Notes under the pieces: generated by a model
What the model was told of the DNA's origin: nothing
Databases searched by the model: none
The model's input: the letters and a program-made list of their open reading frames with translations, nothing else
Shown here: positions 1,043 to 55,986 of the stretch, one piece after another
Layout of the letters: the number at the start of each line of letters is the position of its first letter
Position numbering within the stretch: position 1 is the stretch's first letter
DNA from: Bdellovibrionales bacterium
GTDB lineage: Bacteria > Bdellovibrionota > Bdellovibrionia > Bdellovibrionales > JAMPXM01
Length of the DNA: 60,221 nt
Assembly: GCA_043746635.1 (NCBI GenBank)
Contig: JAYTQQ010000160.1
Coordinates: forward strand, 1-60,221
Direction of reading: 5' to 3'
Translations under genes and position numbers: made by a program

Positions 1043-2911
1043 ATGAATGAAGAGAGCAGTCAAGTTATGGATCTAAAATTAAATGGGCTTTGGTCTTGTT
1101 TAAGTCTGTGCTTCGCAGTCACTCTTTCGTCGTGCTCATTCAATGCGAGCCGATCCCCTTCCATACTTGTGATTATGGTTGATCAACTTGGATTTCATAA
1201 TGTTTCTTGTCTAGAAAACTCAGAAGAAAACCTTAAGACGAATCCTTGGCAGGGGGCTTCTGGCTTTCAAATTCTGTGCAATGAATCTGTTCGATTCACG
1301 CATGCTTACACGTCGTCGACCCTCAGCATGAGTGCAGCGGCTTCGATATTTTCTGCGAAATATCCTCTTGAACATGGTTTGAGGCATAATGGGAATCAGT
1401 TTCTAAGTTCTCAATTTCAAACCGTGGCCGAAGCTGCCATTTCAAAAAATTATCGCACAAGTTTTTTCTCTGGAGGTCCGCCGATTTTCAGGAAGTCAGG
1501 CCTCGGTCAAGGTTTTGAAATTTTCGAAGATAATATTCAAGTTAATTTGAAAAGATTTTATCGTCCGGCGAGCGAGAGCATCAAATTATTTTTGAATTGG
1601 CTAGAACAAGAAAGTTCGAGGCATCCATTTTTTTCGACGCTCTACTTTGCTGATTTGCAATTTGAAGATGTTCCAACGACGAATTCTCTAGGCGAAATTC
1701 GCGAAGCCTCATTTTCAAGTCAAATTGAATATCTCGATGAATCACTAGGAACGCTTTTTCAGGAAATGAAGAAAAAGAAAATTTGGGATTCAACGAATAT
1801 CGTCGTCGTCGGATTATCTGGTCACGGCTCAGAAGAGCGCGAAGATTTGCGGGCGTTAAGTCTCTATAGCGAAGGCACCCATGTGACTCTTTTTGTAAAG
1901 CCAGAGGGTGAACAAAAGAAATCACTCGGAAATTTCGATACGGACATTTCGCTCGTCGATTTGGGCGCTACTCTTTTCGACTGGCTCGGCGGGACCCCTT
2001 CGGTTTCAAAAGAGTCGGCGCTCAAACCTGTTTCTTTCAAAGGTTCATTGAAGGATCGGATTGTATCGGAGCAAAACAAAAGATTTATTCTTTCAGAAAC
2101 GGCTTGGTCAAAATGGAGAAACTTAGGCGAAATCAGATACGCAATTCGAGCTAGCAATCTTCTTGTTTTTAATGATCGAGTACTAAGAGTTTTTGATACG
2201 CTAGAGGATAACACCGAACTGACCAATCTCGGAAAATCGGGCTTTCGAAACGCAGCTCTTCCTACGATTCTAAATTTCTTCACTGACAAAGAGCTTCCTG
2301 GATTTGATCCGCTGACTGCAGAACTAAAATCAAAATTTCTGATCGCGAAAGAGTTATGGCGGGGAGTAAAGCCTAGCAACGAACTTCTGATGCGACTCGC
2401 AGAACTCTCACAGAAGAATCCGCAAGATGCCCAACTCATAAACTGGAGGGCGATTTGGGACATCAGGCTTGACCGTTGGAAGCAGCTCAAGATTCTCGGT
2501 TCGAAAGATTATAATCCCGTTTGGGAATTCGTGGCCCTTAGGAATTTAAACGAAAAGGCTGAGGCGCCGACAGATCCCTGTTTGAACCTCGTAAAAGAAT
2601 ATTCAAACGGTTTATCGAATTTGAATCCCCATGACTGTAAATCAGAAGAATTTATCGATTTGGTCACCTGGCTTGACGACTCCCAATCGCTTTCTCTCAG
2701 GCAAAGAGCGATGGAAAGTTTCTTAAGAATTCACACCGATAAGATTTTGTTCGACCGGGTCGCCGAGCTGAATTATTTAGTCGGAATGACTTGGGACGTA
2801 AGCCTATCGTTTCCGAAAGAGCCATCGATTTCAGATTTAGTTTTGGCCTTGCCCGAGAATAGAAAATATCGACAGATTTTAGTGAAGAGACTTGTCGAAC
2901 TGAGTCTGTAG
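1043..2911 (+). CDS. sulfatase/alkaline-phosphatase-superfamily lipoprotein with a degenerate active-site motif
   Basis: N-terminal lipobox (AVTLSS-C) followed by the sulfatase-like block ILVIMVDQLGFHN...HAYTSSTLSMSAAASIFSAKYPLEHG. The long C-terminal region is unrecognised. The start may be the internal Met at 1067. Confidence 0.6.
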   Translation: MNEESSQVMDLKLNGLWSCLSLCFAVTLSSCSFNASRSPSILVIMVDQLGFHNVSCLENSEENLKTNPWQGASGFQILCNESVRFTHAYTSSTLSMSAAASIFSAKYPLEHGLRHNGNQFLSSQFQTVAEAAISKNYRTSFFSGGPPIFRKSGLGQGFEIFEDNIQVNLKRFYRPASESIKLFLNWLEQESSRHPFFSTLYFADLQFEDVPTTNSLGEIREASFSSQIEYLDESLGTLFQEMKKKKIWDSTNIVVVGLSGHGSEEREDLRALSLYSEGTHVTLFVKPEGEQKKSLGNFDTDISLVDLGATLFDWLGGTPSVSKESALKPVSFKGSLKDRIVSEQNKRFILSETAWSKWRNLGEIRYAIRASNLLVFNDRVLRVFDTLEDNTELTNLGKSGFRNAALPTILNFFTDKELPGFDPLTAELKSKFLIAKELWRGVKPSNELLMRLAELSQKNPQDAQLINWRAIWDIRLDRWKQLKILGSKDYNPVWEFVALRNLNEKAEAPTDPCLNLVKEYSNGLSNLNPHDCKSEEFIDLVTWLDDSQSLSLRQRAMESFLRIHTDKILFDRVAELNYLVGMTWDVSLSFPKEPSISDLVLALPENRKYRQILVKRLVELSL

Positions 2912-2927
2912 ATTCTTCTCTAGTAAG

Positions 2928-3743
2928 CTAGAATACTTCAGGCTTAATTCCGGTTTTGCGTTCAAGCTTTGAAGCGATCGTGTATAGAGTATCCTCGTCG
3001 CAAGCGATGAGACCACTACTTGATGGAGTATGCGTGAGCGTACTAATAAAAACTCTACGAGGCTTCATGAGACCGATCACTTCAATCCACTCTTCGATGT
3101 CTGTGGGCTTCGTATTGTCGAGAGCGCCTTGAACGAAAAAGCTTTGAAGACTTAAATTCTTTACGGATTGAGAGGTCGAAATCAAATGCGATACGGTTGA
3201 ACGTACGAGCGGAGCATTCATCTCTTTTAGCAAACGATCATTTCCGACATCTAATTTGAAAACTATTGAGTCTAAGCGATTTGCGGCTTCAAGAACTTTG
3301 CGTTGATCAAGGTGAGCGCCGTTGGTGAGCAAAAGAGTTTTTGCCGTTGAAAAATATTTTCCACGAAGCTTTAAAATAATTTCGATAGCTTCGGTAAGAT
3401 AAGGATAAAGTGTGGGCTCACCATTTCCTGAAATGTGAATAGCATCGATTTGAACTTTTTGATCAGAGAGTTTTGCAAATTCGTGATCAAGTTGAAATTC
3501 GAGTCCGTCGAGGCTTGCGTAAGGACCATCTTTTTTCACTCGGTTCAATCGCATTTTTGTGCGACCGAGATCACAATATGGACAATCGAATGAACAAATT
3601 TTATTGCCGGTGCCTAAGAGATTAATTCCGAGTGATGAATTAAATCCAAACTGCTTAATGGGACCATAACAAATTCCCATTTGAGTTGGATCAGTATATG
3701 AAAAATCACCGTATTCTTTTTTAAAATCAAAAGCTGCTGACAT
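2928..3743 (-). CDS. radical SAM protein (small, no SPASM-type C-terminal extension)
   Basis: CxxxCxxC cluster motif in ICSFDCPYCDLG, preceded by GPIKQFGFNSSLGINL and followed by ISGNGEPTLYP (SAM-binding GGE-like motif). 271 aa. Last gene of the FHA operon. Confidence 0.85.
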   Translation of the reverse strand: MSAAFDFKKEYGDFSYTDPTQMGICYGPIKQFGFNSSLGINLLGTGNKICSFDCPYCDLGRTKMRLNRVKKDGPYASLDGLEFQLDHEFAKLSDQKVQIDAIHISGNGEPTLYPYLTEAIEIILKLRGKYFSTAKTLLLTNGAHLDQRKVLEAANRLDSIVFKLDVGNDRLLKEMNAPLVRSTVSHLISTSQSVKNLSLQSFFVQGALDNTKPTDIEEWIEVIGLMKPRRVFISTLTHTPSSSGLIACDEDTLYTIASKLERKTGIKPEVF

Positions 3744-3769
3744 TCTTTCTTATCGGCATTCTTTTGTAT

Positions 3770-4456
3770 TTAAAGAGAGAAAGAAATCAGTCCTAGCCAA
3801 AAGGCTAACTGCGGATTTAGTTTAGAAAGTTGCTGGCTCATAAGATCGAGCTCGAATTCGTTTGGATTCAATTGATAGATCTCGCGCGGGAGTTGAGAGT
3901 GGCTGAGCAGAACCAGTTGATCTTCATTTTGTGGCCGAAAGCTATTAATTGTTAGATTTAAACTTGAATCGAGTCCTAACAGCTGATTCGGAAGGCTCGG
4001 CATCAACTCTTCGTCGGCGCTCATATCAAATGAAAGGTCCATCGCGCCGGCGAGGGTAATCACTTGCCTTGATTTGCGGGCGAGCAAGATCTGGGGCTGT
4101 CCGATCTGAATCCAAACGAGTTCTCCGTCGGAGAGCGACATCGTGAAAAGCTCAACCCCGTTTCGATATTCGACATGATTATCTTCACGAAAAATACTTT
4201 CGTTCGCGAGGAGTACGGCGATTCGCAAATTATTCGCCCCAGATGAAAGGCACGATAGTCTCTGAAAGGGAGTTGTCGCCTCGCGATCCTCATTACAAAG
4301 AATGAGGTACTCGAGAATTCGATCGATAGCTTTTTTTCCTGCATCGCGATTCCCCCATGGGGTCGCAACAATTAAAGTTTTATCATCGATGTGAACTTCA
4401 GGTGTAGGCCTAAATTGCTTGCCACTATAAGGTCGGTACGCAAATTTGAAATTCAT
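3770..4456 (-). CDS. hypothetical protein, possible degenerate PP2C-like fold (pseudophosphatase candidate)
   Basis: 228 aa. By-eye alignment to PP2C motifs: TPWGNRDAGKKA vs DGMGGHxAGExA, IQIGQPQILLAR vs VGDSRxYLLR, LLSHSQL vs LCSDGL. The metal-binding Asp positions are substituted. Its start overlaps the stop of the upstream FHA gene by 1 nt (TAATG). Confidence 0.45.
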   Translation of the reverse strand: MNFKFAYRPYSGKQFRPTPEVHIDDKTLIVATPWGNRDAGKKAIDRILEYLILCNEDREATTPFQRLSCLSSGANNLRIAVLLANESIFREDNHVEYRNGVELFTMSLSDGELVWIQIGQPQILLARKSRQVITLAGAMDLSFDMSADEELMPSLPNQLLGLDSSLNLTINSFRPQNEDQLVLLSHSQLPREIYQLNPNEFELDLMSQQLSKLNPQLAFWLGLISFSL

Positions 4457-6426
4457 TAGTGACTTCCGTAGGCTTTTAATTTGCTCTTAGCTTTTCGATA
4501 ATACTCGCCATCGGGACGATCAAGCTCGGTAATCTGTTTCCATTTTTCGAGTGCGCTTTCAACTCTTGAGTTACCCTCGTAAATTGTGGCGGTCGCGAAA
4601 AGCTCTTTGAGTTGGGCATCGAGGTCAGTTCGATATTTTCGAATCAGCGAGTTTACTTTAGAATTGTTTGCATCAATTTTTTGTGCTTTGATAAGTTCGC
4701 CAATCGCCACTTTTAAATTATTTTGGTCGGCGTACTTTTGCCCGGTACGAATATACTCATCTGCTTTTTGAACGAGACTTTGCTTGATCGATGCGATTTT
4801 TCTTGTTGCTTCAGTCTTACGATTTTCAGGATCAGGCAAAGTCGTATGCGACAGTCTTTCGTACGCATCAATTGCGTGTAGGAGTTCACCTTTTGCTTCA
4901 AGACTTCGAGCATGGTTATACATTTCTCGAGCCCGTTGAACGCGTGCTCGATAATCTGCTTTCACGCTTGCACGCTCAGTGGCATCGGAGATGCGCTTGA
5001 GAACCCGATCCTTTTGAATATTAATCTCGTCATTACCTGGATCTAAATTGATGGCCTCTTCTAAGCACTGATCGATGGCTTGTTCTGAAGTTGCCGTCTG
5101 TGAAACTTGATTGCAACGATATAAAATCTCGCTGAGTCGTTTGCTTACCTCTTCGGCGCGCTTACGCTCGCTTTCGATTTTTGCGATTTTTCCTTCGTTG
5201 TCGAGCGCTGTCTGGCACTGGGCCATCAAATTTCTTGAATCTTGATAGGGCTCATCTCCCAGAATTTCTGCAATTTTTTGAAGTTGCGCTTGGGCATTTG
5301 AATATTTACCCTGAAGCAGAAAGTTATTGGCCAAATTATACGAATCAACGACGAGCTGCCTTTGGGCCGAAGATAAATGATCAAACTTATTTGTAGCGCC
5401 CGTTACTTGGTTTGCGTCATCTTTTTTCTTGTTTCCATCGCTGAATATAAATAGACCAAAGATGATAACGATCACGATGGCCGCGTAAACTAAAAGCTTC
5501 TTTTTGCTTTGATCGGGTTGTCGCGTATGCGAAAGAGAATTCATGCCTTGATAGTGAAGAGGAATCGCTCCGCCATCTCCCGCATAAGATCCAGGCATGA
5601 AGCTTGGGTGGAGATACGCGGGCTCTTTTTCAATTATCAATGCAGGAGAATTGATGAAATTCTCAGATAAACCTTGAATACGCTCTTTGAAGCTTGGATC
5701 TCTTAATTCAAAGTGAATCGTTAGCGACTGGACCGAAATGATGTCACCACTCTTTAGAGGCAGGCGCGAAGAAACGCGTCCGCCATTGATGAGAGTACCA
5801 TTCGAACTTCCAGCGTCGGTAATGTAGTAGATATCTTCTTCGAAATCGATTCGAAATTGTTTGCGACTTGCGGTTGCATCTTTAAGAACGATTGAGCAGT
5901 TTTCGTCGCGCCCAGCGATCCAGGATTTACCCTCAAGTCTTAGAACTTCATCTTGTTGATTTGGTCCAGAGATACGAAGGTAAGGAACCCCGATGAAAAC
6001 TCCTGCGGAGGTAATTTCGTTGTCGCCCTGAAAATTTTCATCGAATTCTTGTGGCACCTCAGTCGGAATAATCGCGAGGGCTTTCGAGAACGTTTGCGGT
6101 TCTATTGCGGCTTCCTCTTTGTGTTGTGAATCTTCGAGAGCAATAAAATCATAAGGAGAAAGCTTAAACGCATCGTGTACCGTTAGCGTAAATCCTGTTG
6201 AGGGCTGTCCGTCTTTGGTTAAATTTCCAAATTTTGAAAGCACTTGCACATGCCAAGAATCATCAACAAATTGAATTTTAAAATGCTGACGAGAAATCCC
6301 CGGAAGATCATCGAGAACGATATCGCACGTCGGAGCACGACCAACGACATACTCGCGCCCTGGCCCTGGCTCTAGCATGAGCTCTCTAAATTCACTACCA
6401 TGTTTTCGAATTTTTATCTTTAACAT
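4456..6426 (-). CDS. membrane protein with two N-terminal FHA domains and a C-terminal TPR/coiled-coil region
   Basis: FHA 1: YVVGRAPTCDIVLDDLPGISRQHFKIQF. FHA 2: WIAGRDENCSIVLKDATASRKQFRIDF...SSNGTLINGGRV. One TM helix (LLVYAAIVIVIIFGLFIF), then helical repeats. Confidence 0.85.
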   Translation of the reverse strand: MLKIKIRKHGSEFRELMLEPGPGREYVVGRAPTCDIVLDDLPGISRQHFKIQFVDDSWHVQVLSKFGNLTKDGQPSTGFTLTVHDAFKLSPYDFIALEDSQHKEEAAIEPQTFSKALAIIPTEVPQEFDENFQGDNEITSAGVFIGVPYLRISGPNQQDEVLRLEGKSWIAGRDENCSIVLKDATASRKQFRIDFEEDIYYITDAGSSNGTLINGGRVSSRLPLKSGDIISVQSLTIHFELRDPSFKERIQGLSENFINSPALIIEKEPAYLHPSFMPGSYAGDGGAIPLHYQGMNSLSHTRQPDQSKKKLLVYAAIVIVIIFGLFIFSDGNKKKDDANQVTGATNKFDHLSSAQRQLVVDSYNLANNFLLQGKYSNAQAQLQKIAEILGDEPYQDSRNLMAQCQTALDNEGKIAKIESERKRAEEVSKRLSEILYRCNQVSQTATSEQAIDQCLEEAINLDPGNDEINIQKDRVLKRISDATERASVKADYRARVQRAREMYNHARSLEAKGELLHAIDAYERLSHTTLPDPENRKTEATRKIASIKQSLVQKADEYIRTGQKYADQNNLKVAIGELIKAQKIDANNSKVNSLIRKYRTDLDAQLKELFATATIYEGNSRVESALEKWKQITELDRPDGEYYRKAKSKLKAYGSH

Positions 6427-6431
6427 GTTAG

Positions 6432-7568
6432 TTACTCATCTCCCTTAACGTAAGTATCGCAAACGCGCTTCAACGAAATTGCCTCTTTGTAACGTAGATC
6501 ACTTTCATTTCGAATTTCTATCAGTACCTTTTCAAGTGCGGCTGAACAACGTGGATACATCTGCTTCTCATGATATTGTTTTCCCAGCTCAAGTTGGGAA
6601 GCAATAAATTCTTCGCGCGAGCGAAAAGCATATTCACGGTATCTGCCCGCAAGTTTATGCGTGGGATCAATTGCGAGTGCTGTTTCAAATGAGCGAATGG
6701 CCCTTGAGTATTGGCGCTGACTGTAATCGCGAAAGCCTTCTAGATAGTGCTTATTCGCTTCAACGTACTTCGTATGTTCTTCTACTGAGCTGAATTTTTT
6801 GGTTCCGAAATATTCGGTGAAGAGTCCGAGAGAATCTTCGAAGTCTTTGGTCGCTGCTTGAAAATCTAGTTTTAAGAATTTTTCGCTTCCGTTCATGAGC
6901 TTCTTGTTGGCTTGTTCATAATGAGCTTTTGCATCGGCAGAATCAAGCTTCTTAACCGCGATATCTTCTGCGGACTGTGCTTCGGCTCTCTTGATTTCGG
7001 CATCAATTTTGTCTTGATTCCGAGTGGTCGCTTCAATTATTTTTGGGGCTGAAGAAGTTGATAAAAAGTACACAAGCCCACTTAAGAGAATTGTCGCGAC
7101 AATATAGAATGTGACTTTGCTACTTCCACCTTGTTGTTTGCCCTTATTTGATGAGCGAGGTCGTCCCGGCACGCCAGGAGATCTCATCGGCAAATTTGGA
7201 TTTACTACCTGCAAGTGTTGTCCTTGGGGATTTGCCTGAACCATTTCGGCTTTGAACAGAAAAGTCGTGTCGCCAAGTTCAATCGTATCTCCGTGTTTCA
7301 GTTCGACGGAGCTGACTTGGTGTGAATTGACGAGAGTCGTTTTCTTCGAGCTTAAGTCTTCGATGGATATACGGTCGTGGAGAACGTGAATGACGGCTTG
7401 TTGGCGACTACATTTTCCGTCTGGTAGAACGATATGGCATGAAGGATCCCGACCAATCAACACCTTCGGTGGAATAATCTGAAACGAAGCCCCGCGATCG
7501 GGACCATTCGTAATCGTCAGAGTCACTCTGACTTTTGTTGCCTGTAAATTTACCGCTGAAGAAGACAT
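6432..7568 (-). CDS. membrane protein with an FHA domain and a TPR-like region
   Basis: VLIGRDPSCHIVLPDGKCSRQQAVIHV...TTLVNSHQV (FHA), a Pro/Gly/Ser-rich linker, a TM helix (FYIVATILLSGLVYFL), then a TPR-like C-terminus (AIRSFETALAIDP). Confidence 0.85.
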   Translation of the reverse strand: MSSSAVNLQATKVRVTLTITNGPDRGASFQIIPPKVLIGRDPSCHIVLPDGKCSRQQAVIHVLHDRISIEDLSSKKTTLVNSHQVSSVELKHGDTIELGDTTFLFKAEMVQANPQGQHLQVVNPNLPMRSPGVPGRPRSSNKGKQQGGSSKVTFYIVATILLSGLVYFLSTSSAPKIIEATTRNQDKIDAEIKRAEAQSAEDIAVKKLDSADAKAHYEQANKKLMNGSEKFLKLDFQAATKDFEDSLGLFTEYFGTKKFSSVEEHTKYVEANKHYLEGFRDYSQRQYSRAIRSFETALAIDPTHKLAGRYREYAFRSREEFIASQLELGKQYHEKQMYPRCSAALEKVLIEIRNESDLRYKEAISLKRVCDTYVKGDE

Positions 7569-7571
7569 TAC

Positions 7572-9230
7572 TTAATGACCCCCTTCAGTTTGATTTTTAT
7601 GAATAGTGATAACGAAGTAAACGGGCTCTGCCACCGCGAAAACTGCACGGCCCGAAATGGTATGTTCGATTCCGTCAAAGGGAATTTGGCTGAGAGCCTT
7701 CTCGTCTGGTTGCGCTCTGAGGCTATGAATCAGCTGAATAATATTTTGTCTCAGCGCAGGATCTGAAAGTTCGGAAATGAGCAAGCCCGTCAAAACCAGG
7801 TTTGAGTTGATGAGTTTGTCGAAAGCCTCGTTGACCGAAATTATTTTCGAATCAACCGCAGAAATAGCCATTGCTGGATTATCAATGATCGAAATTAACT
7901 GCACGGCCTCATTGTGTCGCTGTTGAAAGTTAACCTGAACAGCTTCTGAACCTCCAGCGTTTGCCACACGAGTAAGGGTGCTCGACATATTAGATACGAG
8001 GCGATTTAAAATAGGGTATTTATAATCAGTTTGAACATTATCGTGACCATCTCTGAGCGCTTCATCAAGTTGTTCATTAAGCTGTAATATAGGATGCTCG
8101 ATGATTCTCATAAGTAAGAAGTAAAGCAAGAATCCAAATATAAGAGAGATCGCAAAAGTCTCAACGAAGAGACTAAATGTCTGCTCGGTACGAATGCCAA
8201 CGGCCGATAAGTCGTAGATCACGATGGCGTAAGCGATCGCCGTCTGTTCGCCTCGACCAGCGTCGTATGAAATAATAGGTGTGCTTGCTCCGATGAGCGA
8301 GTGTCCGAGAGATTTGTGAAATTCTTTTCCTTCGCGGCGAGCTTCCCTAAAGAAAGAATTCTCGGCATCTTGTTGTCGTAAATTAACGGGAGCAATGACG
8401 TGGCCATCCTTCGCCGAAATGATCGCAGCGACAGACACTCCATCCTCGATTTCGGCAGTTCGGGTGCTCACAGAAACTTCGAGATTGTCGATGACGGCTT
8501 GACGATTATTTTGGGCAAGACCACGAGCAATCGTGACCGCTCGTCTCGTGCTCTCAGCTTCAATGGTATGCGAAATCGTTGTCGTCATGGGAATCGTCGC
8601 GAGTGAGGTCACCATGAAAATAAACACGACAATAAAAATACCGATAACCCAGCGAAACTCGATCGACTGGGCAAATGTATAAACTCCCGGAAGCGCAACA
8701 GACTCAACATAATTTTCGAGAAGAGTTTTCAGATTTTGAAAGAAGTCTCCATTGTTTTGAGGCGCTGGCTGATGCTCTTCAGTATGAGCAAACTGATTTG
8801 CGCTCATATAAGGATTGAGTTGATCTTGCATCTGCGGTGCCGCACTTGAATTCCACGTTGGAATTTGAGGGGCATCGTATTCTGGACCTGGGCCGAGCGG
8901 AGGACGGTTTGCCTTTTGATGATGAGAGAGGAGTGCCACATCTGGAAGTTTCAAAATATCGATGAGGATATCTTTCAGCGCAATCTTATCACCGATATTC
9001 ACGCGTTGATTTTGAATCTTCACGCCGTTTACAAAAGTACCGTTGCGTGAATTCAAATCACTTAAGATAATCTTGTCGTCAGTCAAAAAAACCTGGGCGT
9101 GTTCTTTCGAAACACCATTTGATTGAATTTTAATTTCGCACTGAGGAGCACGACCAATCGAATTCTTACCCATTTTTAGTGGGTAGATTTGACCAGCTTG
9201 TGCGCCGCTCAGAATTCTAATCGCCCACAT
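7572..9230 (-). CDS. FHA-domain sensor-like membrane protein (FHA, TM, periplasmic domain, TM, HAMP, PAS-like; no output domain)
   Basis: NSIGRAPQCEIKIQSNGVSKEHAQVF...SRNGTFVNGVKI (FHA). Two TM helices flank about 150 aa. HAMP-like RIIEHPILQLNEQLDEAL. PAS-like IIDNPAMAISAVDSKIISVNEAFDKL. I use the ATG at 9230 (GGAG 9 nt upstream); the track start at 9245 is a TTG. Confidence 0.8.
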   Translation of the reverse strand: MWAIRILSGAQAGQIYPLKMGKNSIGRAPQCEIKIQSNGVSKEHAQVFLTDDKIILSDLNSRNGTFVNGVKIQNQRVNIGDKIALKDILIDILKLPDVALLSHHQKANRPPLGPGPEYDAPQIPTWNSSAAPQMQDQLNPYMSANQFAHTEEHQPAPQNNGDFFQNLKTLLENYVESVALPGVYTFAQSIEFRWVIGIFIVVFIFMVTSLATIPMTTTISHTIEAESTRRAVTIARGLAQNNRQAVIDNLEVSVSTRTAEIEDGVSVAAIISAKDGHVIAPVNLRQQDAENSFFREARREGKEFHKSLGHSLIGASTPIISYDAGRGEQTAIAYAIVIYDLSAVGIRTEQTFSLFVETFAISLIFGFLLYFLLMRIIEHPILQLNEQLDEALRDGHDNVQTDYKYPILNRLVSNMSSTLTRVANAGGSEAVQVNFQQRHNEAVQLISIIDNPAMAISAVDSKIISVNEAFDKLINSNLVLTGLLISELSDPALRQNIIQLIHSLRAQPDEKALSQIPFDGIEHTISGRAVFAVAEPVYFVITIHKNQTEGGH

Positions 9231-9567
9231 ATAGCTCGTCTCCAATATCGACCTTGTTTGCTTTCAATGTCCCAGCAGGAAGTTCAATGACTGAGCTTGC
9301 TCGCCAGACCATTGGAGAAAGTCTCCAAGGTTTCATATTTTCAAGGGTCCTCTGCACTTTCATATTCTTATCTACAAAGATGGTATCAATTGCGAAATTC
9401 ATAAAACAGGTATGGACACATCGGGTATTATCGAAAAATATTGCCGACCCTGGTTGCATCGACTGATCAAACATCAAGCCTTTAAGCTTCGAAAAATAAT
9501 TATCAGCAAATCGCAGGGACGCTGCAATCTGAGAGTCTGATTTTGATCTGTTCAAAAGCTTCTTCAT
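9217..9567 (-). CDS. DUF192-family protein
   Basis: Motifs KGLMF...ALD-like FAIDTIFVDKNMKV...IELPAG are characteristic of DUF192 (COG1430). ATG at 9567; the track start at 9582 is a TTG overlapping the upstream gene. Confidence 0.65.
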   Translation of the reverse strand: MKKLLNRSKSDSQIAASLRFADNYFSKLKGLMFDQSMQPGSAIFFDNTRCVHTCFMNFAIDTIFVDKNMKVQRTLENMKPWRLSPMVWRASSVIELPAGTLKANKVDIGDELYVGD

Positions 9568-9571
9568 TTGG

Positions 9572-10471
9572 TTACTTTCCAAACATCATATTGAGTGCTA
9601 CCGGTGCAAAAACCATGATGAACACTGCCGGCATAATAAAAATAATCATAGGGATCAAAATCGCTTGCGAAGCTCTCGCTCCTGCTTTCTCTGCACGGAC
9701 GAATCTCTCCATGCGCATCTGAATCGATTGTTCTTTCAAAACCTTCACGACACTCGCTCCGGTACTTTCTGAATCTACTATGACATTCACCAGAGAATTT
9801 ACTTCGTTGAGATCAATTCGCTTAGCGAACGATTTCAATGCATCGATACGCGAACTTCCGATCGCGATATCTTCGAGAACGCGACTAAACTCCATTGCGA
9901 GAACGCTATCGTCGGAAGACTTCTCGACGATTTTTTTCATTGCGCCTTGAAGATCGAGTCCTGCTTCTGCGGCGAGTGACATGAGATCGACAAAGAAGGG
10001 AAGATCCATCAAGATCGAGCGTTGGCGCACGGTACGTTGCGCGTTCGCATGCATTCTCGGAACATAAAATCCAAAAGGAATAATCGCGAAAATAATAAAA
10101 TACGAATATCCAAGTTGGAGCGAGAAATTAAGTAGCGCACACAGCACCGGAAACATAATTCCCCAAAGAATTTGGAGAGCGATAAATTCATCAACGTTTA
10201 ATTCTGCCGCTAGACCCGAAGTTGAAATCAACTGTTCAATTTTTTTACGATAGTTTACGTTTTTGTATCGCATAGCGTGCGACAAAGTAAATTGGTGAGC
10301 TAGCTGTCTCGAGAATTCGATGATTTGTGATTTTGATTTTACCGGTGCGCTTGCGGATGCCCATTGCAACGATTTCTGTTCTTCGTTTTTTGCGAAGAGC
10401 GCAGATAGGATTCGGTAGACTGCAAAGCCGAATACCAAAATTCCGACGTAGAGTTTGATATTGCTTCCCAT
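9572..10471 (-). CDS. type II secretion system F-family protein (TadB/TadC-like pilus platform protein), orphan
   Basis: T2SSF-type block LPFFVDLMSLAAEAGLDLQGAMKKIV...STGASVVKVLKEQS plus N- and C-terminal TM helices. The ATG at 10471 is preferred. The track start at 10507 is a GTG that would overlap the divergent maf start. Confidence 0.7.
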   Translation of the reverse strand: MGSNIKLYVGILVFGFAVYRILSALFAKNEEQKSLQWASASAPVKSKSQIIEFSRQLAHQFTLSHAMRYKNVNYRKKIEQLISTSGLAAELNVDEFIALQILWGIMFPVLCALLNFSLQLGYSYFIIFAIIPFGFYVPRMHANAQRTVRQRSILMDLPFFVDLMSLAAEAGLDLQGAMKKIVEKSSDDSVLAMEFSRVLEDIAIGSSRIDALKSFAKRIDLNEVNSLVNVIVDSESTGASVVKVLKEQSIQMRMERFVRAEKAGARASQAILIPMIIFIMPAVFIMVFAPVALNMMFGK

Positions 10472-10501
10472 GAATGGCCTTTCTGTGGTGTAACTAAATC
10501 T

Positions 10502-11104
10502 ATGCACACGCTGATTTTAGCTTCCGGGTCTCCACGCAGAAGAGAGCTCCTCGAAAGAGCGGGCTTTTTATTTTCAGTACACTCTATTCAAATATCGGAA
10601 ATTCCGAACAAAAACCTAAGCTTGCCGAAGCAAATTGAGGATCTCGCGAAGCAAAAAGCCTATGCTTTAGTCGAGTCGGATATGTATCCGAAGTTGCACA
10701 CTAATTTGGTGCTATCCGGAGACACGCTCGTGGTCTTGGATGGCGAAGTTCTAGGCAAGCCGCTAGACCTTGATCAGTCGAGAGAGTTTTTGGAGAAACT
10801 TTCAGGACGAAAGCATAGCGTGATCACGGCGATTTGTTTTTTAGAGCCATCACAAAAACGTGAAGTTGTGGCTCATGAAGAATCGTTTGTTCATTTTCGG
10901 AAGCTCACTGAACAACAAATTTCTAGTTATGTTGCGAGTGGTGATGGTCTTGATAAAGCAGGCGCTTATGGGATCCAAACTCTCGCCGAGGGATTCATCG
11001 AAAAAATCGAAGGCAACATTGACAACGTCATGGGACTTTCAGTTTCACTGGTTGAAAAAATTCTAAAAGAAAATAACTGGCATGTCGATCGCCGAAAATC
11101 TTAA
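10502..11104 (+). CDS. maf: Maf-family nucleoside triphosphate pyrophosphatase
   Basis: LILASGSPRRRELLERAGF...DKAGAYGIQ, the canonical Maf signatures; 200 aa. Confidence 0.9.
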   Translation: MHTLILASGSPRRRELLERAGFLFSVHSIQISEIPNKNLSLPKQIEDLAKQKAYALVESDMYPKLHTNLVLSGDTLVVLDGEVLGKPLDLDQSREFLEKLSGRKHSVITAICFLEPSQKREVVAHEESFVHFRKLTEQQISSYVASGDGLDKAGAYGIQTLAEGFIEKIEGNIDNVMGLSVSLVEKILKENNWHVDRRKS

Positions 11105-11789
11105 TAAACTGAAACGCCAGATCTCTGAAGCTTGCGTGAAGGCGGGTCGCTCTGCGCAGTCGTGTTCACTCATCGCGGTTTCAAAAACAAAACCTGTTGC
11201 GCAAATTTTAGAAGCGGTGAACGCGGGTCAAAATGAATTTGGTGAAAATTACGCTCAAGAGGCCTTGGTGAAAATTTCAGATGCTTTTTTAATCGCAAAA
11301 CCTTTGCTGTGGCATTTTATCGGGAATCTGCAAAGCAATAAGGCCCATCAAGTTGTTGCTCATTTTTCTCTTATTCATTCGGTCGATCGACTATCAATTG
11401 CTCAAGCTATTTCTAAAGAAGCTCAGAAAAAAAATCTCGTACAAAATATTTTAATGCAAATAAATGTTGGCGATGAAGAATCGAAATCTGGAATCAGTAT
11501 CGTCGACGCGCCGAAACTTTTAGAACAAATTCTTGAGCTCAAAAATATACGCCTTTGTGGTTTGATGGGTTTACCTCCGCTGGTCGAGGATATTTTTGAG
11601 CAGCGTTCTTACTTTCGAATTTTGCGAGAATTCATGAAGAATCACTCTGAAAAATTATCTGATAGCCAAAAATCAGATTTTAAGATCTTATCTATGGGGA
11701 CGACTCATGATTTTGAGTCAGCCATTTTTGAAGGAGCAACTCACGTTCGAATCGGCACAGCCATATTTGGAGCAAGGGAAGTTCAGTGA
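11082..11789 (+). CDS. yggS: YggS-family pyridoxal-phosphate homeostasis protein
   Basis: LIAVSKTKP...FGENYAQE...WHFIGNLQSNK...SMGTTHDFESAI...VRIGTAIFG. Typical YggS/YlmE length (235 aa). Confidence 0.9.
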   Translation: MSIAENLNKLKRQISEACVKAGRSAQSCSLIAVSKTKPVAQILEAVNAGQNEFGENYAQEALVKISDAFLIAKPLLWHFIGNLQSNKAHQVVAHFSLIHSVDRLSIAQAISKEAQKKNLVQNILMQINVGDEESKSGISIVDAPKLLEQILELKNIRLCGLMGLPPLVEDIFEQRSYFRILREFMKNHSEKLSDSQKSDFKILSMGTTHDFESAIFEGATHVRIGTAIFGAREVQ

Positions 11790-12616
11790 CCAAAAATAGA
11801 AAAATCGGATTTATCGGCCTCGGCAACCTCGGCCAGGCCATCGTCAAAGCATTGATTGAAAGTAAAACCTACGAAGCTTCGCAAATTTTCGCGACTAACC
11901 GCTCTGCCGGAAAATTAGCAAAAATGAAAGAGCAGTTCGGTATCAACGGATGCAACACGAACGAAGAGCTCGTTGAAAAATGCGATACGATTGTTTTAGC
12001 AGTGAAGCCTCAAGACCTCGTGCAGGTGCTTGAGCCAATTGCTTCCTTTTTTTCTCGCGAACATCTCGTTGTCTCTCTTGCGGCAGGGTTTTCGATCAAA
12101 ACTTTGCAAAAACTTTTACCTGAAGTTGCCGGAATCGTCAGGGTAATGCCTAACACTCCTGCAACGATTCGCAAAGCAGTCGTCGGTTACTGTTTGGGAC
12201 CAAAGGCTTCAGCATACGAAGCGCAGGTCACCGAAATTTTTCAACCACTTGGGCTTCTCGTTCCAGTTCCTGAGGGAGAATCTTTTGAAGCCCTAACGGT
12301 TTCATGCGGAAGCGGTACCGGCTTCGTTCTCGAGTTCATGGAGTACTGGCAAGAATGGCTTGAAGAACATAATTTTGAACCGAAGCTCGCACGCGAAATG
12401 GTCGTGCAAACTTTTTTAGGAGCCGAGATGCTTGCCGAAAAAACTCCTGAAACTTCTCTCGTCGATCTTCAAGACAAGGTGGTTTCAAAAAAAGGTGTCA
12501 CCTTTGCGGGCCTTCAATCCATGCGTGAACTCGAAATCGAACGGGCTTTAAGATACAGCTTTGAGAAGGCAGTTCTAAAAGATCAAGAAATTGCACGGAC
12601 AACGGAACAGCAATAA
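11786..12616 (+). CDS. proC: pyrroline-5-carboxylate reductase
   Basis: KIGFIGLGNLGQAI Rossmann motif...VRVMPNTPA...SGSGPAF-like GSGTGFV. GTGA start/stop overlap with yggS. Confidence 0.9.
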   Translation: MTKNRKIGFIGLGNLGQAIVKALIESKTYEASQIFATNRSAGKLAKMKEQFGINGCNTNEELVEKCDTIVLAVKPQDLVQVLEPIASFFSREHLVVSLAAGFSIKTLQKLLPEVAGIVRVMPNTPATIRKAVVGYCLGPKASAYEAQVTEIFQPLGLLVPVPEGESFEALTVSCGSGTGFVLEFMEYWQEWLEEHNFEPKLAREMVVQTFLGAEMLAEKTPETSLVDLQDKVVSKKGVTFAGLQSMRELEIERALRYSFEKAVLKDQEIARTTEQQ

Positions 12617-12814
12617 AGCAGTCAGGCTCGCGATCCAGTGTTAGCGGTCGTGCTCTCATTTCTCTACACAGAAATCATTGGGAAAATCTATTTTCGTCGC
12701 AAATTTTAGTTCCTAGCCCTTGGTCTAGAAAATGAATCCATTCTTCTAAGCCAGTAAAAAGTCGGTTAGCCTAAAGACTGAGGTACCTCGTACCTTCAAA
12801 ATTCAGGAGGAATA

Positions 12815-13615
12815 ATGAGAATCGCGCCAATCGATATTGCCCACAAAAACTTTTCTAAGAAATTCATGGGCTTTGACTCAGAAGAAGTGATCGAATTTTT
12901 GCGAGAGATGGCCGACCAAATGGAAGAACTCATCCGCGACCGTAACTCGCTCAAAGAAACACTCAGAGAAAAAGAACTTAATATTTTAGAGTACCGTGAG
13001 CGCGATGAAACTCTCAAAACAACGATCACAACCGCAACTCGCATGGCAGAGCAAATTCGCGTCGATGCTGAACGTGAAGCAAAACTCATCATGCATGATG
13101 CAAATCAAAAAGCCGAAATGATCGTGAAAGACGCTCGCGATTCACTCAAGCGGATCTATCAAGAAGTGGGCGAAATGAAACGCGCACGCATTCAGTTTGA
13201 AGCTAATTTGCGTTCAATCGCTCAAGCTCATTTGGCGATGCTCGATCAGAGTCACCAGATTATGCCAGACTATCAAAATCAAAATATGAATTGGGGCATG
13301 GGCCAACAGCCACAACAACCTATGCAGCAGCCTATGCAACAACCCATGCAGCAGCAGGCTCAATCCGTTCAGCAAATGCCGCTTCAAAATAACCAAAGCG
13401 TCGCGGCTCAACACGCTCAACAGATGGCTCAGCAAAAAGCGAATCAGCAACAACAACAGCAGGGCACTTATAATTTTGGAGCGCAGACCACAGGTCAGAC
13501 CATCAGCACGGGCTATCCTGTGAACGGCATGCCTCAGAAACCTCAAGGTAATTTGGCAGCAGCGACAAATCCTGCGGGAAAAGTGAATCCGAATCGCCCG
13601 ACAACGGGTCTTTAA
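12815..13615 (+). CDS. divIVA: DivIVA-domain protein with a Gln/Pro/Met-rich low-complexity C-terminus
   Basis: N-terminus MRIAPIDIAHKNFSKKFMGFDSEEVIEFL is the DivIVA lipid-binding motif, followed by a coiled coil. The tail contains QQPQQPMQQPMQQPMQQQ. Strong SD (caggagga) 4 nt upstream. Confidence 0.85.
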   Translation: MRIAPIDIAHKNFSKKFMGFDSEEVIEFLREMADQMEELIRDRNSLKETLREKELNILEYRERDETLKTTITTATRMAEQIRVDAEREAKLIMHDANQKAEMIVKDARDSLKRIYQEVGEMKRARIQFEANLRSIAQAHLAMLDQSHQIMPDYQNQNMNWGMGQQPQQPMQQPMQQPMQQQAQSVQQMPLQNNQSVAAQHAQQMAQQKANQQQQQQGTYNFGAQTTGQTISTGYPVNGMPQKPQGNLAAATNPAGKVNPNRPTTGL

Positions 13616-13616
13616 T

Positions 13617-13656
13617 CTCTTTTTTAAAAAAACTTTCGGCCGTTAAAAGCCGAGAG
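13617..13656 (-). terminator. rho-independent terminator of the dienelactone hydrolase gene
   Basis: On the minus strand: CTCTCGGC-ttttaacg-GCCGAAAG (8-bp stem with one G:U pair) followed by TTTTTTT. Confidence 0.7.
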
Positions 13657-13664
13657 CACCCGAA

Positions 13665-48364: not shown

Positions 48365-48365
48365 T

Positions 48366-55928: not shown

Positions 55929-55986
55929 TGAATTGCTCCAATATTAAATTGTTTGAAACGAAAATTTTGAGTGAGGACGTAATGCT

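What the first reader, a model, noticed from the sequence alone, without database searches (positions are those of the whole stretch)
2928..10507. Seven-gene operon combining an orphan TadC-like protein, DUF192, four FHA domains on three membrane proteins, a PP2C-like pseudoenzyme and a radical SAM enzyme
Seven minus-strand genes are packed with junctions from a 14-nt overlap to a 26-nt gap: 9572/9567, 9217/9230 overlap, 7572/7568, 6432/6426, a TAATG overlap at 4456, and 3770/3743. They therefore very probably form one transcript. The T2SS-F/TadC-like protein has no pilus ATPase, pilin or secretin partner in the window. The three following membrane proteins carry four FHA phosphothreonine-reader domains fused to TPR/coiled-coil or HAMP-PAS modules. 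No Ser/Thr kinase, active phosphatase or enzymatic output domain is present. The last two genes are a PP2C-like protein lacking its catalytic Asp residues and a small radical SAM enzyme. I do not recognise this combination as a described system. It could be a phospho-dependent envelope scaffold or signalling assembly.
Basis: partly seen in the sequence, partly recalled or inferred. Interest (0 to 1): 0.75.

Follow-up and report, generated by a model that had tools for sequence, protein, structure and literature searches.

The report
Bdellovibrio-type tadC predation operon
This gene cluster is the counterpart, in an uncultured Bdellovibrio-like predator, of a published operon (Bd0470-Bd0475) that encodes the TadC pilus-platform protein plus five accessory proteins needed to kill prey, so it is a known though mechanistically unsolved system and not a new one.

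Summary
Seven tightly packed minus-strand genes carry the predicted domains. These include a PP2C fold in the sixth protein, which no sequence library detects, and a HAMP-PAS sensor half in the first FHA protein.

The interpretation as an undescribed system does not hold. Gene order, protein lengths, domain architectures and the DivIVA-ProC-YggS-Maf flank match the Bdellovibrio bacteriovorus HD100 'tadC locus', Bd0470-Bd0475. All six genes there score as predation-defective in Tn-seq. Bd0474 binds Bd0075, and TadC sits at the invasive pole. Myxococcus kilH (tadC) also lies next to FHA and FHA/TPR genes.

Across 76 Bdellovibrionales genomes, genes 1-6 always keep the same order, with overlapping or near-abutting junctions. 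The radical SAM gene is missing in 19 of 64 informative loci, so it is an optional neighbour.

New details from this work:
- The PP2C-fold protein family never has Asp at the positions I align with three PPM metal ligands (141 representatives).
- Gene 3 is an FHA domain fused to a WalK-like sensor without a kinase.
- Only two of the four FHA domains keep the full phosphothreonine-binding triad.
- Two near-invariant 'E-x-T' threonines are candidate phosphosites.

Verdict: new member of a known kind, of moderate interest.

The parts
9572..10471 (-). Gene 1: TadC, the inner-membrane platform subunit of the Tad / type IVc pilus. It has a single T2SSF domain. The ORF is open up to a GTG at 10507, but the ATG at 10471 is the likely start.
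   Evidence: Pfam T2SSF 7e-15. Homologues are 299-302 aa and JGI names them 'tight adherence protein C'. A GAAAGG motif lies upstream of the ATG. Hydrophobic segments are present. The gene call in the ENA contig gives 299 aa.
9217..9567 (-). Gene 2: a small DUF192 (COG1430) protein. This copy has no hydrophobic N-terminus.
   Evidence: Pfam DUF192 3e-17. No hydrophobic segment. It lies directly after tadC in 47 of 47 loci. The HD100 counterpart Bd0471 matched the DUF192 structure class by Phyre2. DUF192 also sits next to Tad genes in Erysipelotrichales (PMC12786226).
7572..9230 (-). Gene 3: an N-terminal FHA domain, a disordered linker, TM1, a periplasmic alpha/beta sensor domain, TM2, HAMP-like helices and a PAS-like domain. 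There is no DHp/CA kinase module.
   Evidence: Pfam FHA 4e-17. AF2 model with pLDDT 81. Foldseek top hit is WalK (9a5d_A), E = 2.8e-12 over 381 columns; the FHA domain resembles FhaA, GarA, OdhI and DgcB. NCBIfam HK_WalK is weak, E = 0.006. PAS_9 gives E = 0.11 but spans the full model length. GR, SxxH and NG are conserved in at least 90% of 51 orthologues.
6432..7568 (-). Gene 4: an FHA domain, one TM helix (about residues 150-174) and a periplasmic TPR-like domain.
   Evidence: Pfam FHA 1e-17, TPR_2 below cut-off. One hydrophobic segment. The FHA Asn loop is degenerate in the window copy, and the His is not conserved across the family. The HD100 counterpart Bd0473 is 386 aa and is predicted to bind Bd0475 (PMC12034629).
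4456..6426 (-). Gene 5: tandem FHA domains, one TM helix (about residues 307-333) and a large periplasmic TPR / helical domain.
   Evidence: Pfam FHA in two stretches, 2e-28. One hydrophobic segment. FHA2 keeps R/S/N; FHA1 lacks the Asn. T139 in the inter-FHA linker is invariant in 64 of 64 orthologues. The architecture equals that of Bd0474, which has two cytoplasmic FHA domains and a periplasmic TPR domain and binds Bd0075.
3770..4456 (-). Gene 6: a 228-aa soluble protein with a PP2C/PPM fold that lacks the metal-binding aspartates, so a predicted pseudophosphatase.
   Evidence: No Pfam or NCBIfam hit. AF2 pLDDT 86.7, pTM 0.87. Foldseek matches PstP, tPphA and PppA at E about 1e-11. hhalign places T32 and H186 opposite PstP D38 and D191. 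In 141 family representatives none of the four commonest residues at these positions is Asp. The family is small, with 385 representatives. Bd0475 is also 228 aa, and Phyre2 gave '91% serine phosphatase'.
2928..3743 (-). Gene 7: a small radical SAM enzyme with a CxxxCxxC core and no SPASM or twitch extension. It is a frequent but optional downstream neighbour, not part of the conserved core.
   Evidence: Pfam Radical_SAM 7.5e-11. C50, C54 and C57 are invariant. No NCBIfam family comes near its cut-off. The best PDB profile hits are QueE (E = 0.023) and TYW1 (E about 0.06). It is absent in 19 of 64 loci that have both gene 6 and the sulfatase gene, and the median gap after gene 6 is +42 nt. In L080 it overlaps gene 6 by 4 nt.
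10472..10501 (.). A 30-nt divergent spacer between the tadC start and the maf start. The operon's promoter must therefore lie at least partly inside maf.
   Evidence: Sequence read directly and ORF table. The sigma-70 consensus scan shows no enrichment over shuffles.

Best explanation
This is the 'tadC locus' of a Bdellovibrionales predator. It is the counterpart of B. bacteriovorus Bd0470-Bd0475.

Gene 1 encodes TadC, one of the two inner-membrane platform subunits of the Tad (type IVc, Kil-like) pilus machine. In Bdellovibrio that machine is essential for prey attachment and invasion, and the rest of it is encoded elsewhere in the genome.

Genes 2-6 are lineage-specific accessory proteins co-translated with TadC. 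Three are inner-membrane proteins. Each exposes one or two FHA domains to the cytoplasm. On the periplasmic side, gene 3 carries a WalK-like sensor and genes 4 and 5 carry TPR/helical scaffolds; gene 3's HAMP- and PAS-like modules follow its second membrane helix, on the cytoplasmic side.

Proposed mechanism (inferred):
- The three proteins assemble around the TadB/TadC platform at the invasive pole.
- They read envelope or prey-contact cues in the periplasm. Bd0474's TPR domain binds the TPR protein Bd0075.
- They pass those cues to the cytoplasmic face of the machine through phosphothreonine-dependent FHA contacts.
- This licenses the step after attachment, that is prey killing, rounding and invasion.
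- The kinase is encoded elsewhere. A PknG-like kinase, Bd3148, is also predation-essential in HD100.
- Gene 6 cannot dephosphorylate. It acts as an adaptor or phospho-acceptor that docks on the gene-4 FHA protein.
- Candidate phosphosites are the near-invariant T61 of gene 6 (a D-x-E-x-T-S/T-P-F loop, which I recall as similar to the GarA/OdhI ETTS motif) and T139 of gene 5.

The radical SAM gene is an optional neighbour.

Shown: the architectures, synteny and translational coupling (this work), and the predation phenotypes and the Bd0474-Bd0075 interaction (literature). Inferred: the physical link to TadC, the dependence on phosphorylation, and the nature of the signal.
For: Identity
- The order is TadC, DUF192, FHA-sensor (552 aa), FHA-TPR (378 aa), 2xFHA-TPR (656 aa), then a 228-aa PP2C-like protein.
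- This equals the published Bd0470-Bd0475 operon: Bd0473 is 386 aa, Bd0474 is about 673 aa with FHA domains at 2-100 and 134-241 and TPR at 363-673, and Bd0475 is 228 aa.
- The upstream DivIVA-ProC-YggS-Maf block corresponds to Bd0464 and following genes.

Functional linkage
- Genes 1-6 lie in one order in all 44 loci where the contig spans them, down to 26% identity for gene 6.
- Median junctions are -1, -14, -4, -1 and -1 nt.

Predation role
- Tn-seq fitness is 0.002-0.03 for each of Bd0470 to Bd0475.
- Bd0470::tn fails to attach. Bd0474::tn attaches but neither kills nor rounds prey. Both mutants are complemented.

Link to Tad
- TadC is essential and polar, and tadC is separate from tad locus 1 and flanked by FHA/TPR/PAS genes.
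- M. xanthus KilH, the reciprocal best hit of Bd0470, is adjacent to MXAN_4649 (FHA, PrgH-like) and MXAN_4648 (FHA+TPR).
- DUF192 is adjacent to Tad genes in Firmicutes.

Phospho-dependence
- The FHA domain of gene 3 and FHA2 of gene 5 keep Arg, Ser and Asn in at least 90% of orthologues.
- Structurally they resemble pThr-binding FHA domains.

Pseudophosphatase
-.
- A Bd0473-Bd0475 contact is predicted with ipTM 0.60.
Against: - I could not obtain HD100 or Myxococcus sequences. Orthology to Bd0470-Bd0475 therefore rests on architecture, lengths, gene order and flanks, not on a reciprocal best-hit test.
- The whole neighbourhood, from ProC to ExbB/ExbD, is also syntenic in this order. Conserved order alone is thus weak evidence of shared function, although the overlapping junctions are stronger evidence.
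- The Bd0474 mutant phenotype (attaches) differs from the TadC mutant phenotype (does not attach).
- The operon has no kinase, and two of the four FHA domains have degenerate pThr-binding residues.
- The Bd0473-Bd0475 prediction has only ipTM 0.60 and has not been tested.
- The residue mapping for gene 6 rests on an hhalign alignment of low probability (2.7%, E = 0.017) plus fold matches, not on superposed coordinates.
- No transcript data exist for this organism.
Confidence: 0.6

Rival explanations
1. A phospho-independent structural ring. The three FHA-TM-periplasmic proteins form a fixed inner-membrane collar around the Tad platform, as SctD (YscD/PrgH) does in type III secretion or EssC's tandem FHA domains do in type VII. 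In this reading the FHA domains are plain protein-binding modules and no kinase is involved.
For: - All four FHA regions also match Pfam Yop-YscD_cpl, at 1e-15 to 1e-25.
- MXAN_4649 was matched to PrgH by HHpred.
- The topology, with FHA in the cytoplasm, one TM helix and a periplasmic domain, is that of SctD.
- The gene-4 FHA and FHA1 of gene 5 have lost the Asn or His of the pThr pocket.
- The window has no kinase and no active phosphatase.
- The only phosphatase-like protein is catalytically dead by sequence.
Against: - The FHA of gene 3 and FHA2 of gene 5 keep the full Arg/Ser/Asn triad in at least 90% of 51-64 orthologues. YscD-type FHA domains lack this triad, to my knowledge.
- Their closest structures are pThr-dependent FHA domains: FhaA, GarA, OdhI and DgcB.
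- Gene 3 carries sensor modules (Cache-like, HAMP, PAS) that suit signalling better than a static ring.
Confidence: 0.2
2. An independent Ser/Thr-phospho signalling module that merely sits next to tadC. For example, it could control gliding arrest, c-di-GMP levels or cell-cycle entry after attachment, with no physical role in the Tad machine.
For: - Bd0474::tn attaches normally whereas tadC::tn does not.
- The entire region is syntenic in this order, so adjacency is partly inherited.
- A review proposes that FHA proteins in kil clusters couple prey contact to motility arrest (PMC12428579).
Against: - Overlapping or abutting junctions from tadC through gene 6 in all loci argue for co-translation and fixed stoichiometry.
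- The same TadC-FHA-FHA/TPR adjacency occurs in the distantly related Myxococcus kil cluster 2.
- DUF192 recurs beside Tad genes in Firmicutes.
- Complementing the Bd0470 and Bd0474 mutants needed similar induced expression.
Confidence: 0.12
3. One reading: a previously undescribed seven-gene system in which the radical SAM enzyme is an integral output or maturation enzyme, for example modifying a pilin or one of the FHA proteins.
For: - The radical SAM gene follows gene 6 in 45 of 64 informative loci.
- It overlaps gene 6 by 4 nt in one lineage (L080).
- Its Cys triad and GNGEP motif are conserved.
Against: - It is absent in 19 of 64 loci, with gene 6 then abutting the sulfatase gene, and it is displaced by 0.6-3.3 kb in four others.
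- No Bd0476 entry appears in the supplementary data sets of the HD100 Tn-seq study that list Bd0470-Bd0475.
- The six-gene unit is already published as an operon.
Confidence: 0.05

Closest known systems
B. bacteriovorus HD100 tadC locus / operon Bd0470-Bd0475 (Duncan et al. 2019, PMC6561027; PMC12034629; bioRxiv 10.64898/2026.07.08.737194)
   Same: - The same six genes lie in the same order, with matching lengths and domain architectures: TadC, a DUF192-like protein, an FHA protein, an FHA protein of about 380 aa, a 2xFHA+TM+TPR protein of about 660 aa, and a 228-aa phosphatase-like protein.
- The upstream DivIVA block is the same.
- tadC is separated from the remaining tad genes.
   Different: - The window comes from an uncultured relative. 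TadC identity to the nearest frequently sequenced lineage is about 59%.
- Direct sequence orthology to HD100 was not tested.
- A radical SAM gene follows here, and its presence in HD100 is unknown.
- The window's DUF192 protein has no signal-like N-terminus, whereas Bd0471 was noted to have a signal sequence.
Myxococcus xanthus Kil system, cluster 2 (MXAN_4648-4652; Seef et al. 2021, PMC8460266)
   Same: - A TadC homologue (KilH, the reciprocal best hit of Bd0470) lies directly beside an FHA protein (PrgH-like) and an FHA+TPR protein.
- It is a Tad-derived machine used for contact-dependent predation.
- FHA domains are over-represented in the clusters.
   Different: - In Myxococcus, kilH stays next to kilG (tadB) and kilB.
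- No DUF192 or PP2C-like gene is listed there.
- The ATPase itself carries an FHA domain.
- Homology between the Bdellovibrio and Myxococcus FHA proteins was not tested here and was not reported in that paper.
Pseudomonas aeruginosa H1-T6SS threonine phosphorylation pathway (PpkA kinase, PppA PP2C phosphatase, Fha1)
   Same: - An envelope nanomachine is gated after cell contact by an FHA protein together with a PP2C-fold protein.
- PppA is among the best structural matches of gene 6.
   Different: - There is no kinase in the locus.
- The PP2C-fold protein lacks its metal ligands.
- The FHA proteins are membrane-anchored sensors, not a soluble adaptor.
T3SS inner-ring protein SctD (YscD/PrgH/EscD)
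   Same: - The topology is a bitopic N-terminal cytoplasmic FHA domain, one TM helix and a periplasmic domain.
- Pfam Yop-YscD_cpl matches all four FHA regions.
   Different: - The periplasmic parts are TPR or Cache-like domains, not ring-building motifs.
- Two of the FHA domains keep a canonical pThr pocket.
- NCBIfam SctD scores are far below its cut-off.
WalK-type sensor histidine kinases
   Same: Gene 3 residues from about 170 to 550 superpose on the TM, extracellular sensor, TM, HAMP and PAS half of WalK.
   Different: The protein ends after the PAS domain, with no DHp or catalytic ATPase domain. It carries an N-terminal FHA domain instead.
Canonical tad/flp loci (Aggregatibacter tadZABCDEFG, Caulobacter cpa)
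   Same: A TadC-type, single-T2SSF-domain platform protein.
   Different: No flp, tadV, rcpCAB, tadZ, tadA, tadB, tadD, tadE, tadF or tadG is nearby. The accessory genes here are absent from the canonical loci.

Membership tests
Bdellovibrio tadC operon (Bd0470-Bd0475) | The first gene is a TadC-type protein with a single T2SSF domain, encoded away from tadB, tadA, rcpA and flp. | tested here: met
   Pfam T2SSF 7e-15. Homologues are named tight adherence protein C. No other tad genes occur in the 60-kb window.
Bdellovibrio tadC operon (Bd0470-Bd0475) | The downstream order is DUF192-like, FHA, FHA (about 386 aa), 2xFHA+TM+TPR (about 673 aa), then a 228-aa phosphatase-like hypothetical protein. 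| tested here: met
   Searches compared with the published descriptions. The window lengths are 116, 552, 378, 656 and 228 aa.
Bdellovibrio tadC operon (Bd0470-Bd0475) | The genomic flank contains DivIVA (Bd0464) and the ylm-type genes upstream. | tested here: met
   DivIVA at 12815-13615, Pfam 1e-35. ProC, YggS and Maf follow. The same arrangement occurs in L080. Bd0464 is DivIVA and is listed just before Bd0470.
Bdellovibrio tadC operon (Bd0470-Bd0475) | Reciprocal best-hit sequence orthology to the HD100 proteins. | not testable with these tools
   HD100 sequences could not be retrieved. The genome scan returned only MAGs, the homologue lists are capped at 120, and the cluster look-up gave no names.
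Bdellovibrio tadC operon (Bd0470-Bd0475) | The genes are required for predation. | not testable with these tools
   This is known only for HD100/109J (Tn-seq). The window organism is uncultured.
Canonical Tad/Flp pilus locus | TadA/CpaF ATPase, TadB, Flp pilin, prepilin peptidase and RcpA secretin are encoded in the same cluster. | tested here: not met
   None was found among ORFs of at least 200 aa in the window or within +/-10 kb in 44 related loci.
PPM/PP2C Ser/Thr phosphatases | The PP2C alpha-beta-beta-alpha sandwich fold. | tested here: met
   The AF2 model (pLDDT 86.7) matches PstP, tPphA, PppA, MspP, SpoIIE and RsbX at E 5e-12 to 1e-8, with TM 0.55-0.72.
PPM/PP2C Ser/Thr phosphatases | Metal-binding aspartates, numbered D38, D191 and D229 in PstP (the DGxGG, SDG and DN motifs). 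| tested here: not met
   hhalign places ATPWG opposite ADGMGG and LLSHS opposite LCSDG. In 141 family representatives, position 32 is T/F/I/S, position 186 is R/H/S/G, and positions 219-220 are F/W; Asp is not among the four commonest residues at any of them. The D229 equivalence is my own manual mapping and is not covered by the hhalign alignment.
PPM/PP2C Ser/Thr phosphatases | Sequence-level membership (Pfam PF00481, PF13672 or PF07228). | tested here: not met
   No Pfam or NCBIfam hit at E <= 0.01. The PDB profile search found no PPM. An exhaustive HMM search found only 385 representatives, and the 150 listed are nearly all about 220-250 aa, with some shorter fragments.
Phosphothreonine-binding FHA domains | Conserved Arg (beta3-beta4 loop), Ser (beta4-beta5 loop) and Asn (beta6-beta7 loop) in the pThr pocket. 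| tested here: met
   Met for the gene-3 FHA (GR, SKxH, SxNG) and for FHA2 of gene 5 (GR, SR, SsNGT), each in at least 90% of orthologues. Only partly met for gene 4, where the window copy has Lys in place of the Asn, and for FHA1 of gene 5, which has no Asn.
Sensor histidine kinases (WalK-like) | A sensory half of TM, extracytoplasmic sensor, TM, HAMP and PAS. | tested here: met
   Secondary structure and topology of the AF2 model. Foldseek hit to WalK at 2.8e-12 over 381 columns.
Sensor histidine kinases (WalK-like) | DHp (HisKA) and catalytic HATPase_c domains. | tested here: not met
   The protein ends at the PAS-like domain (552 aa). There is no HisKA or HATPase_c hit even at E = 10.
T6SS threonine phosphorylation pathway | A Hanks-type kinase (PpkA) and an active PP2C (PppA) encoded with the FHA protein. 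| tested here: not met
   No Pkinase domain occurs in the window; the only kinase-like protein is an ABC1/UbiB type at 49728-51398. The PP2C-fold protein lacks its metal ligands.
Anaerobic sulfatase-maturating radical SAM enzymes (anSME) | A SPASM domain with auxiliary clusters, and a partner sulfatase with a C/S-x-P-x-R motif. | tested here: not met
   Gene 7 is 271 aa with only the core Cys triad and no NCBIfam family near its cut-off. On reading the neighbouring sulfatase-family protein I found no CxPxR motif.

The most novel reading that the evidence does not exclude
The five accessory proteins could form a kinase-less 'pseudo-signalling' collar on the Tad platform. In this reading:
- A sensor-kinase-derived protein (gene 3) has swapped its kinase for an FHA domain.
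- A PP2C-derived pseudophosphatase (gene 6) has become a phospho-acceptor or decoy. Its near-invariant ETTS-like loop (T61) is read by the operon's own FHA domains.
- T139 of gene 5 acts as a second switch.

Together these would gate the change of the predatory Tad pilus from attachment to invasion. That would be a new class of accessory ring for type IV filament machines. It would be shared in rudimentary form with the Myxococcus Kil system, and it would tie DUF192 to Tad biology across phyla.
Probability: 0.2. Interest if true: 0.65.

Novelty: new member of a known kind. Interest (0 to 1): 0.35.

Why it matters
How a predatory bacterium turns prey contact into invasion is still unresolved. 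The Tad pilus is essential for that step, and this operon contains the only Tad platform gene that is physically linked to candidate sensors.

Three results narrow the hypotheses that can be tested in the tractable HD100 strain:
- The six-gene unit is fixed across the order, with overlapping reading frames.
- Its phosphatase-like member lacks the catalytic metal ligands throughout the family, by sequence.
- One FHA protein is a sensor-kinase remnant.

The tests that follow are FHA pocket mutants, T61 and T139 phosphosite mutants, and searches for kinase partners such as the PknG-like Bd3148.

As a genome-scan finding it is not a discovery of a new system. The operon, its predation phenotype and its FHA/TPR content are already in the literature.

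Tried and rejected
- **HD100 and Myxococcus sequences for a direct orthology test.** The single genome scan returned only MAGs. Homologue lists are capped at the best 120 and were filled by closer MAG proteins. A look-up of ten 228-aa representatives gave no names. P0221, seen on 73 contigs, turned out to be another uncultured lineage.
- **Sequence-level detection of the PP2C relationship.** Pfam, NCBIfam and a profile search of PDB sequences found nothing. hhalign against PstP and tPphA gave a colinear but statistically weak alignment (probability 2.7%, E = 0.017). I use it only with the fold match.
- **Promoter and terminator consensus scan of 2500-11200.** Counts equalled those in shuffled sequence, so it is uninformative.
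- **Annotating the rest of the window through contig look-ups.** One ORF was not on record and the other returned only a short contig. I replaced this with Pfam scans.
- **Radical SAM enzyme as a maturase for the neighbouring sulfatase.** Rejected: there is no SPASM domain, the protein is too short, the sulfatase-family protein has no CxPxR motif, and the sulfatase persists where the radical SAM gene is absent.
- **Assigning the radical SAM enzyme to a subfamily.** Only generic core matches far below the cut-offs were found.
- **DUF192 literature.** Only one relevant paper turned up, on a Tad-adjacent DUF192 in Erysipelotrichales.

Full report
**1. The observation**

The junctions are a 4-nt gap (9572/9567), a 14-nt overlap (9217/9230), a 3-nt gap (7572/7568), a 5-nt gap (6432/6426), a 1-nt overlap at 4456 and a 26-nt gap (3770/3743).

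Pfam confirms T2SSF, DUF192, four FHA stretches on three proteins with sub-threshold TPR, and Radical_SAM. It finds nothing for the sixth protein and no HAMP or PAS in the third.

Hydrophobicity gives two membrane segments in gene 3, one each in genes 4 and 5, and none in genes 2, 6 and 7.

Gene 1 most likely starts at the ATG at 10471 (299 aa). A GAAAGG motif lies upstream, homologues are 299-302 aa, and the public gene call agrees. That leaves only 30 nt between the divergent tadC and maf start codons.

**2. The two domain calls that sequence libraries could not check**

*Gene 6.* I aligned 30 homologues (A1) and predicted the structure, which gave pLDDT 86.7 and pTM 0.87. Foldseek against the PDB returned only PPM/PP2C phosphatases at the top: PstP, tPphA, the T6SS regulator PppA, MspP, SpoIIE and RsbX. 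E-values ran from 5e-12 to 1e-8 and TM-scores from 0.55 to 0.72. A profile search of PDB sequences saw none of these.

To map the catalytic residues I first checked a recalled PstP sequence against 2cm1; it was 100% identical. I then ran hhalign of A1 against PstP plus tPphA. The alignment is statistically weak (E = 0.017) but colinear over 171 columns. It places 'VATPWG' opposite 'LADGMGG' and 'LLSHS' opposite 'LCSDG'.

An exhaustive HMM search of 1.84 billion representatives found a small family of 385 members. The 150 listed are nearly all about 220-250 aa and match over their full length, apart from some shorter fragments. In 141 of them, the positions equivalent to PstP D38 and D191 are T/F/I/S and R/H/S/G, and the position I map by hand to D229 is F/W. 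Asp is not among the four commonest residues at any of them.

*Gene 3.* A model built on 30 homologues (pLDDT 81) shows the following layout:
- FHA domain, residues 1-95
- disordered linker, 99-159
- a membrane helix
- a periplasmic alpha/beta domain, about 215-345
- a second membrane helix
- HAMP-like helices
- a PAS-like domain, 435-545

The best PDB match is the sensor kinase WalK over 381 columns (E = 2.8e-12). The FHA domain matches phosphothreonine-dependent FHA domains: FhaA, GarA, OdhI and Bdellovibrio DgcB. The protein ends after the PAS domain and has no kinase module.

**3. What the locus is**

The literature identifies it. In B. bacteriovorus HD100, tadC (Bd0470) is encoded apart from the main tad locus. 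It is essential, forms a focus at the invasive pole, and is flanked by genes with FHA, TPR and PAS domains (bioRxiv 10.64898/2026.07.08.737194).

Duncan et al. 2019 describe Bd0470 as lying upstream in an operon with Bd0474, an FHA protein. The tadC mutant fails to attach. The Bd0474 mutant attaches but neither kills nor rounds prey. Their Data Set S5 gives Tn-seq fitness of 0.002-0.03 for every gene from Bd0470 to Bd0475. It annotates Bd0471 as matching the 'hypothetical signal peptide protein' structure, which is the DUF192 fold, and Bd0475 as '91% serine phosphatase' by Phyre2.

PMC12034629 states that Bd0470-Bd0475 form one operon. It gives Bd0473 as a 386-aa FHA protein. Bd0474 has two cytoplasmic FHA domains and a periplasmic TPR domain that binds Bd0075 in a two-hybrid assay. 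Bd0475 is a 228-aa hypothetical protein predicted to bind Bd0473, with ipTM 0.60.

The window's genes 1-6 match this description in order, in length (299, 116, 552, 378, 656 and 228 aa) and in architecture. The upstream DivIVA-ProC-YggS-Maf block corresponds to Bd0464 and following genes. I could not retrieve HD100 sequences, so reciprocal-best-hit orthology remains untested.

**4. Conservation**

A profile of gene 6 retrieved 76 loci from species-representative genomes, all of them Bdellovibrionales MAGs. tblastn of the window proteins shows genes 1-6 in the same order and orientation wherever the contig reaches. That covers 44 complete loci, down to 26% identity for gene 6.

Median junctions are -1, -14, -4, -1 and -1 nt. 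This points to translational coupling.

The radical SAM gene behaves differently. Its median gap is +42 nt. It is absent from 19 of 64 loci that contain both gene 6 and the downstream sulfatase gene, and it is displaced by insertions in four. In one lineage it overlaps gene 6 (L080).

The surrounding genes, ProC to ExbB/ExbD, are also syntenic. Gene order alone is therefore weaker evidence than the overlaps.

**5. Wider parallels**

In Myxococcus xanthus, KilH is the reciprocal best hit of Bd0470. It lies next to MXAN_4649 (FHA, PrgH-like) and MXAN_4648 (FHA+TPR). The Kil paper and a 2025 review single out the FHA proteins as candidate contact-signalling components of unknown function.

A DUF192 protein is also consistently adjacent to Tad genes in Erysipelotrichales and Helcococcus.

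**6. Mechanism**

The rest of the window holds housekeeping genes, flagellins, a HisKA/NtrC pair and an integrative element. It has no tad genes, no Hanks kinase and no active phosphatase.

Across orthologues, the FHA of gene 3 and the second FHA of gene 5 keep the Arg/Ser/Asn phosphothreonine pocket in at least 90% of sequences. The FHA of gene 4 and the first FHA of gene 5 are degenerate.

Two threonines stand out:
- T61 of gene 6 is conserved in 138 of 141 representatives. It sits in a D-x-E-x-T-S/T-P-F coil, which resembles the GarA/OdhI ETTS autoregulatory motif as I recall it.
- T139 of gene 5 is conserved in 64 of 64 orthologues, with Glu or Asp at position -2. It lies in the otherwise variable linker before FHA2.

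My best-supported reading is that genes 2-6 form an inner-membrane sensing and scaffolding module of the predatory Tad machine. It would couple periplasmic cues to the cytoplasmic side by FHA-phosphothreonine contacts, with a trans-encoded kinase. The PknG-like Bd3148 is also predation-essential. The pseudophosphatase would serve as adaptor or phospho-acceptor.

The main rival is a phospho-independent SctD-like ring. A merely co-located signalling module is less likely, and an integral role for the radical SAM enzyme is unlikely.

**7. Verdict**

However, the system is already described, down to the phosphatase-like hint for Bd0475 in a supplementary table.

The increments from this work are:
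- the family-wide loss of the PPM metal ligands;
- the recognition of gene 3 as a WalK-like sensor without a kinase;
- the six-plus-one structure of the cluster;
- the uneven conservation of the FHA pockets;
- two candidate phosphosites.

I rate it a new member of a known kind, with moderate interest (0.35).

Noticed in passing
window 53976-60053: A tRNA-Leu(CAG) gene at 53976-54062 overlaps the end of a large serine recombinase gene (54041-55747, minus strand). An FtsK/SpoIIIE-family gene (57785-59227) and a TrbI/TraM-like conjugation gene (59136-60053) follow. This looks like an integrative conjugative element inserted at the tRNA, running off the window end.
   Followed up: no
window 10472-10501: The start codons of tadC (minus strand) and maf (plus strand) are only 30 nt apart. 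Both divergent promoters must therefore overlap the neighbouring coding sequences. In relatives L080-L083, Maf and YggS are fused into one 446-aa protein. In the window they are separate genes that overlap by 23 nt (11082-11104).
   Followed up: partly
window 3770-4456 (gene 6, residue T61) and 4456-6426 (gene 5, residue T139): Two threonines are almost invariant, each with an acidic residue at -2. T61 is kept in 138 of 141 representatives, in a D-x-E-x-T-S/T-P-F coil. T139 is kept in 64 of 64 orthologues, in the variable linker before FHA2. They are candidate phosphosites for the operon's own FHA domains.
   Followed up: partly
window 1043-2911 and 328-960: A 622-aa sulfatase-family (alkaline-phosphatase superfamily) protein lies convergent with the operon, followed by ExbB/ExbD. 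On reading its sequence I found no C/S-x-P-x-R formylglycine motif. The block is conserved next to the operon in nearly all related loci.
   Followed up: partly
L045 about 8279-10001; L032 about 10672-13993; L063 about 10675-13302: Some relatives carry insertions of 1.7-3.3 kb, either between genes 5 and 6 (L045) or after gene 6 (L032, L063). I did not examine their content.
   Followed up: no
window 46974-47822 and 48306-49199: Two tandem flagellin genes (Flagellin_N plus Flagellin_C).
   Followed up: no
window 29014-30915 and 31102-32508: A HisKA-containing sensor protein, with no HATPase_c hit at 1e-5, lies next to an NtrC-type sigma-54 response regulator. The pair is about 20 kb from the tadC operon.
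   Followed up: no
window 49728-51398: An ABC1/UbiB atypical kinase-like protein. It is the only kinase-fold protein found in the window and is not a Hanks-type Ser/Thr kinase.
   Followed up: no
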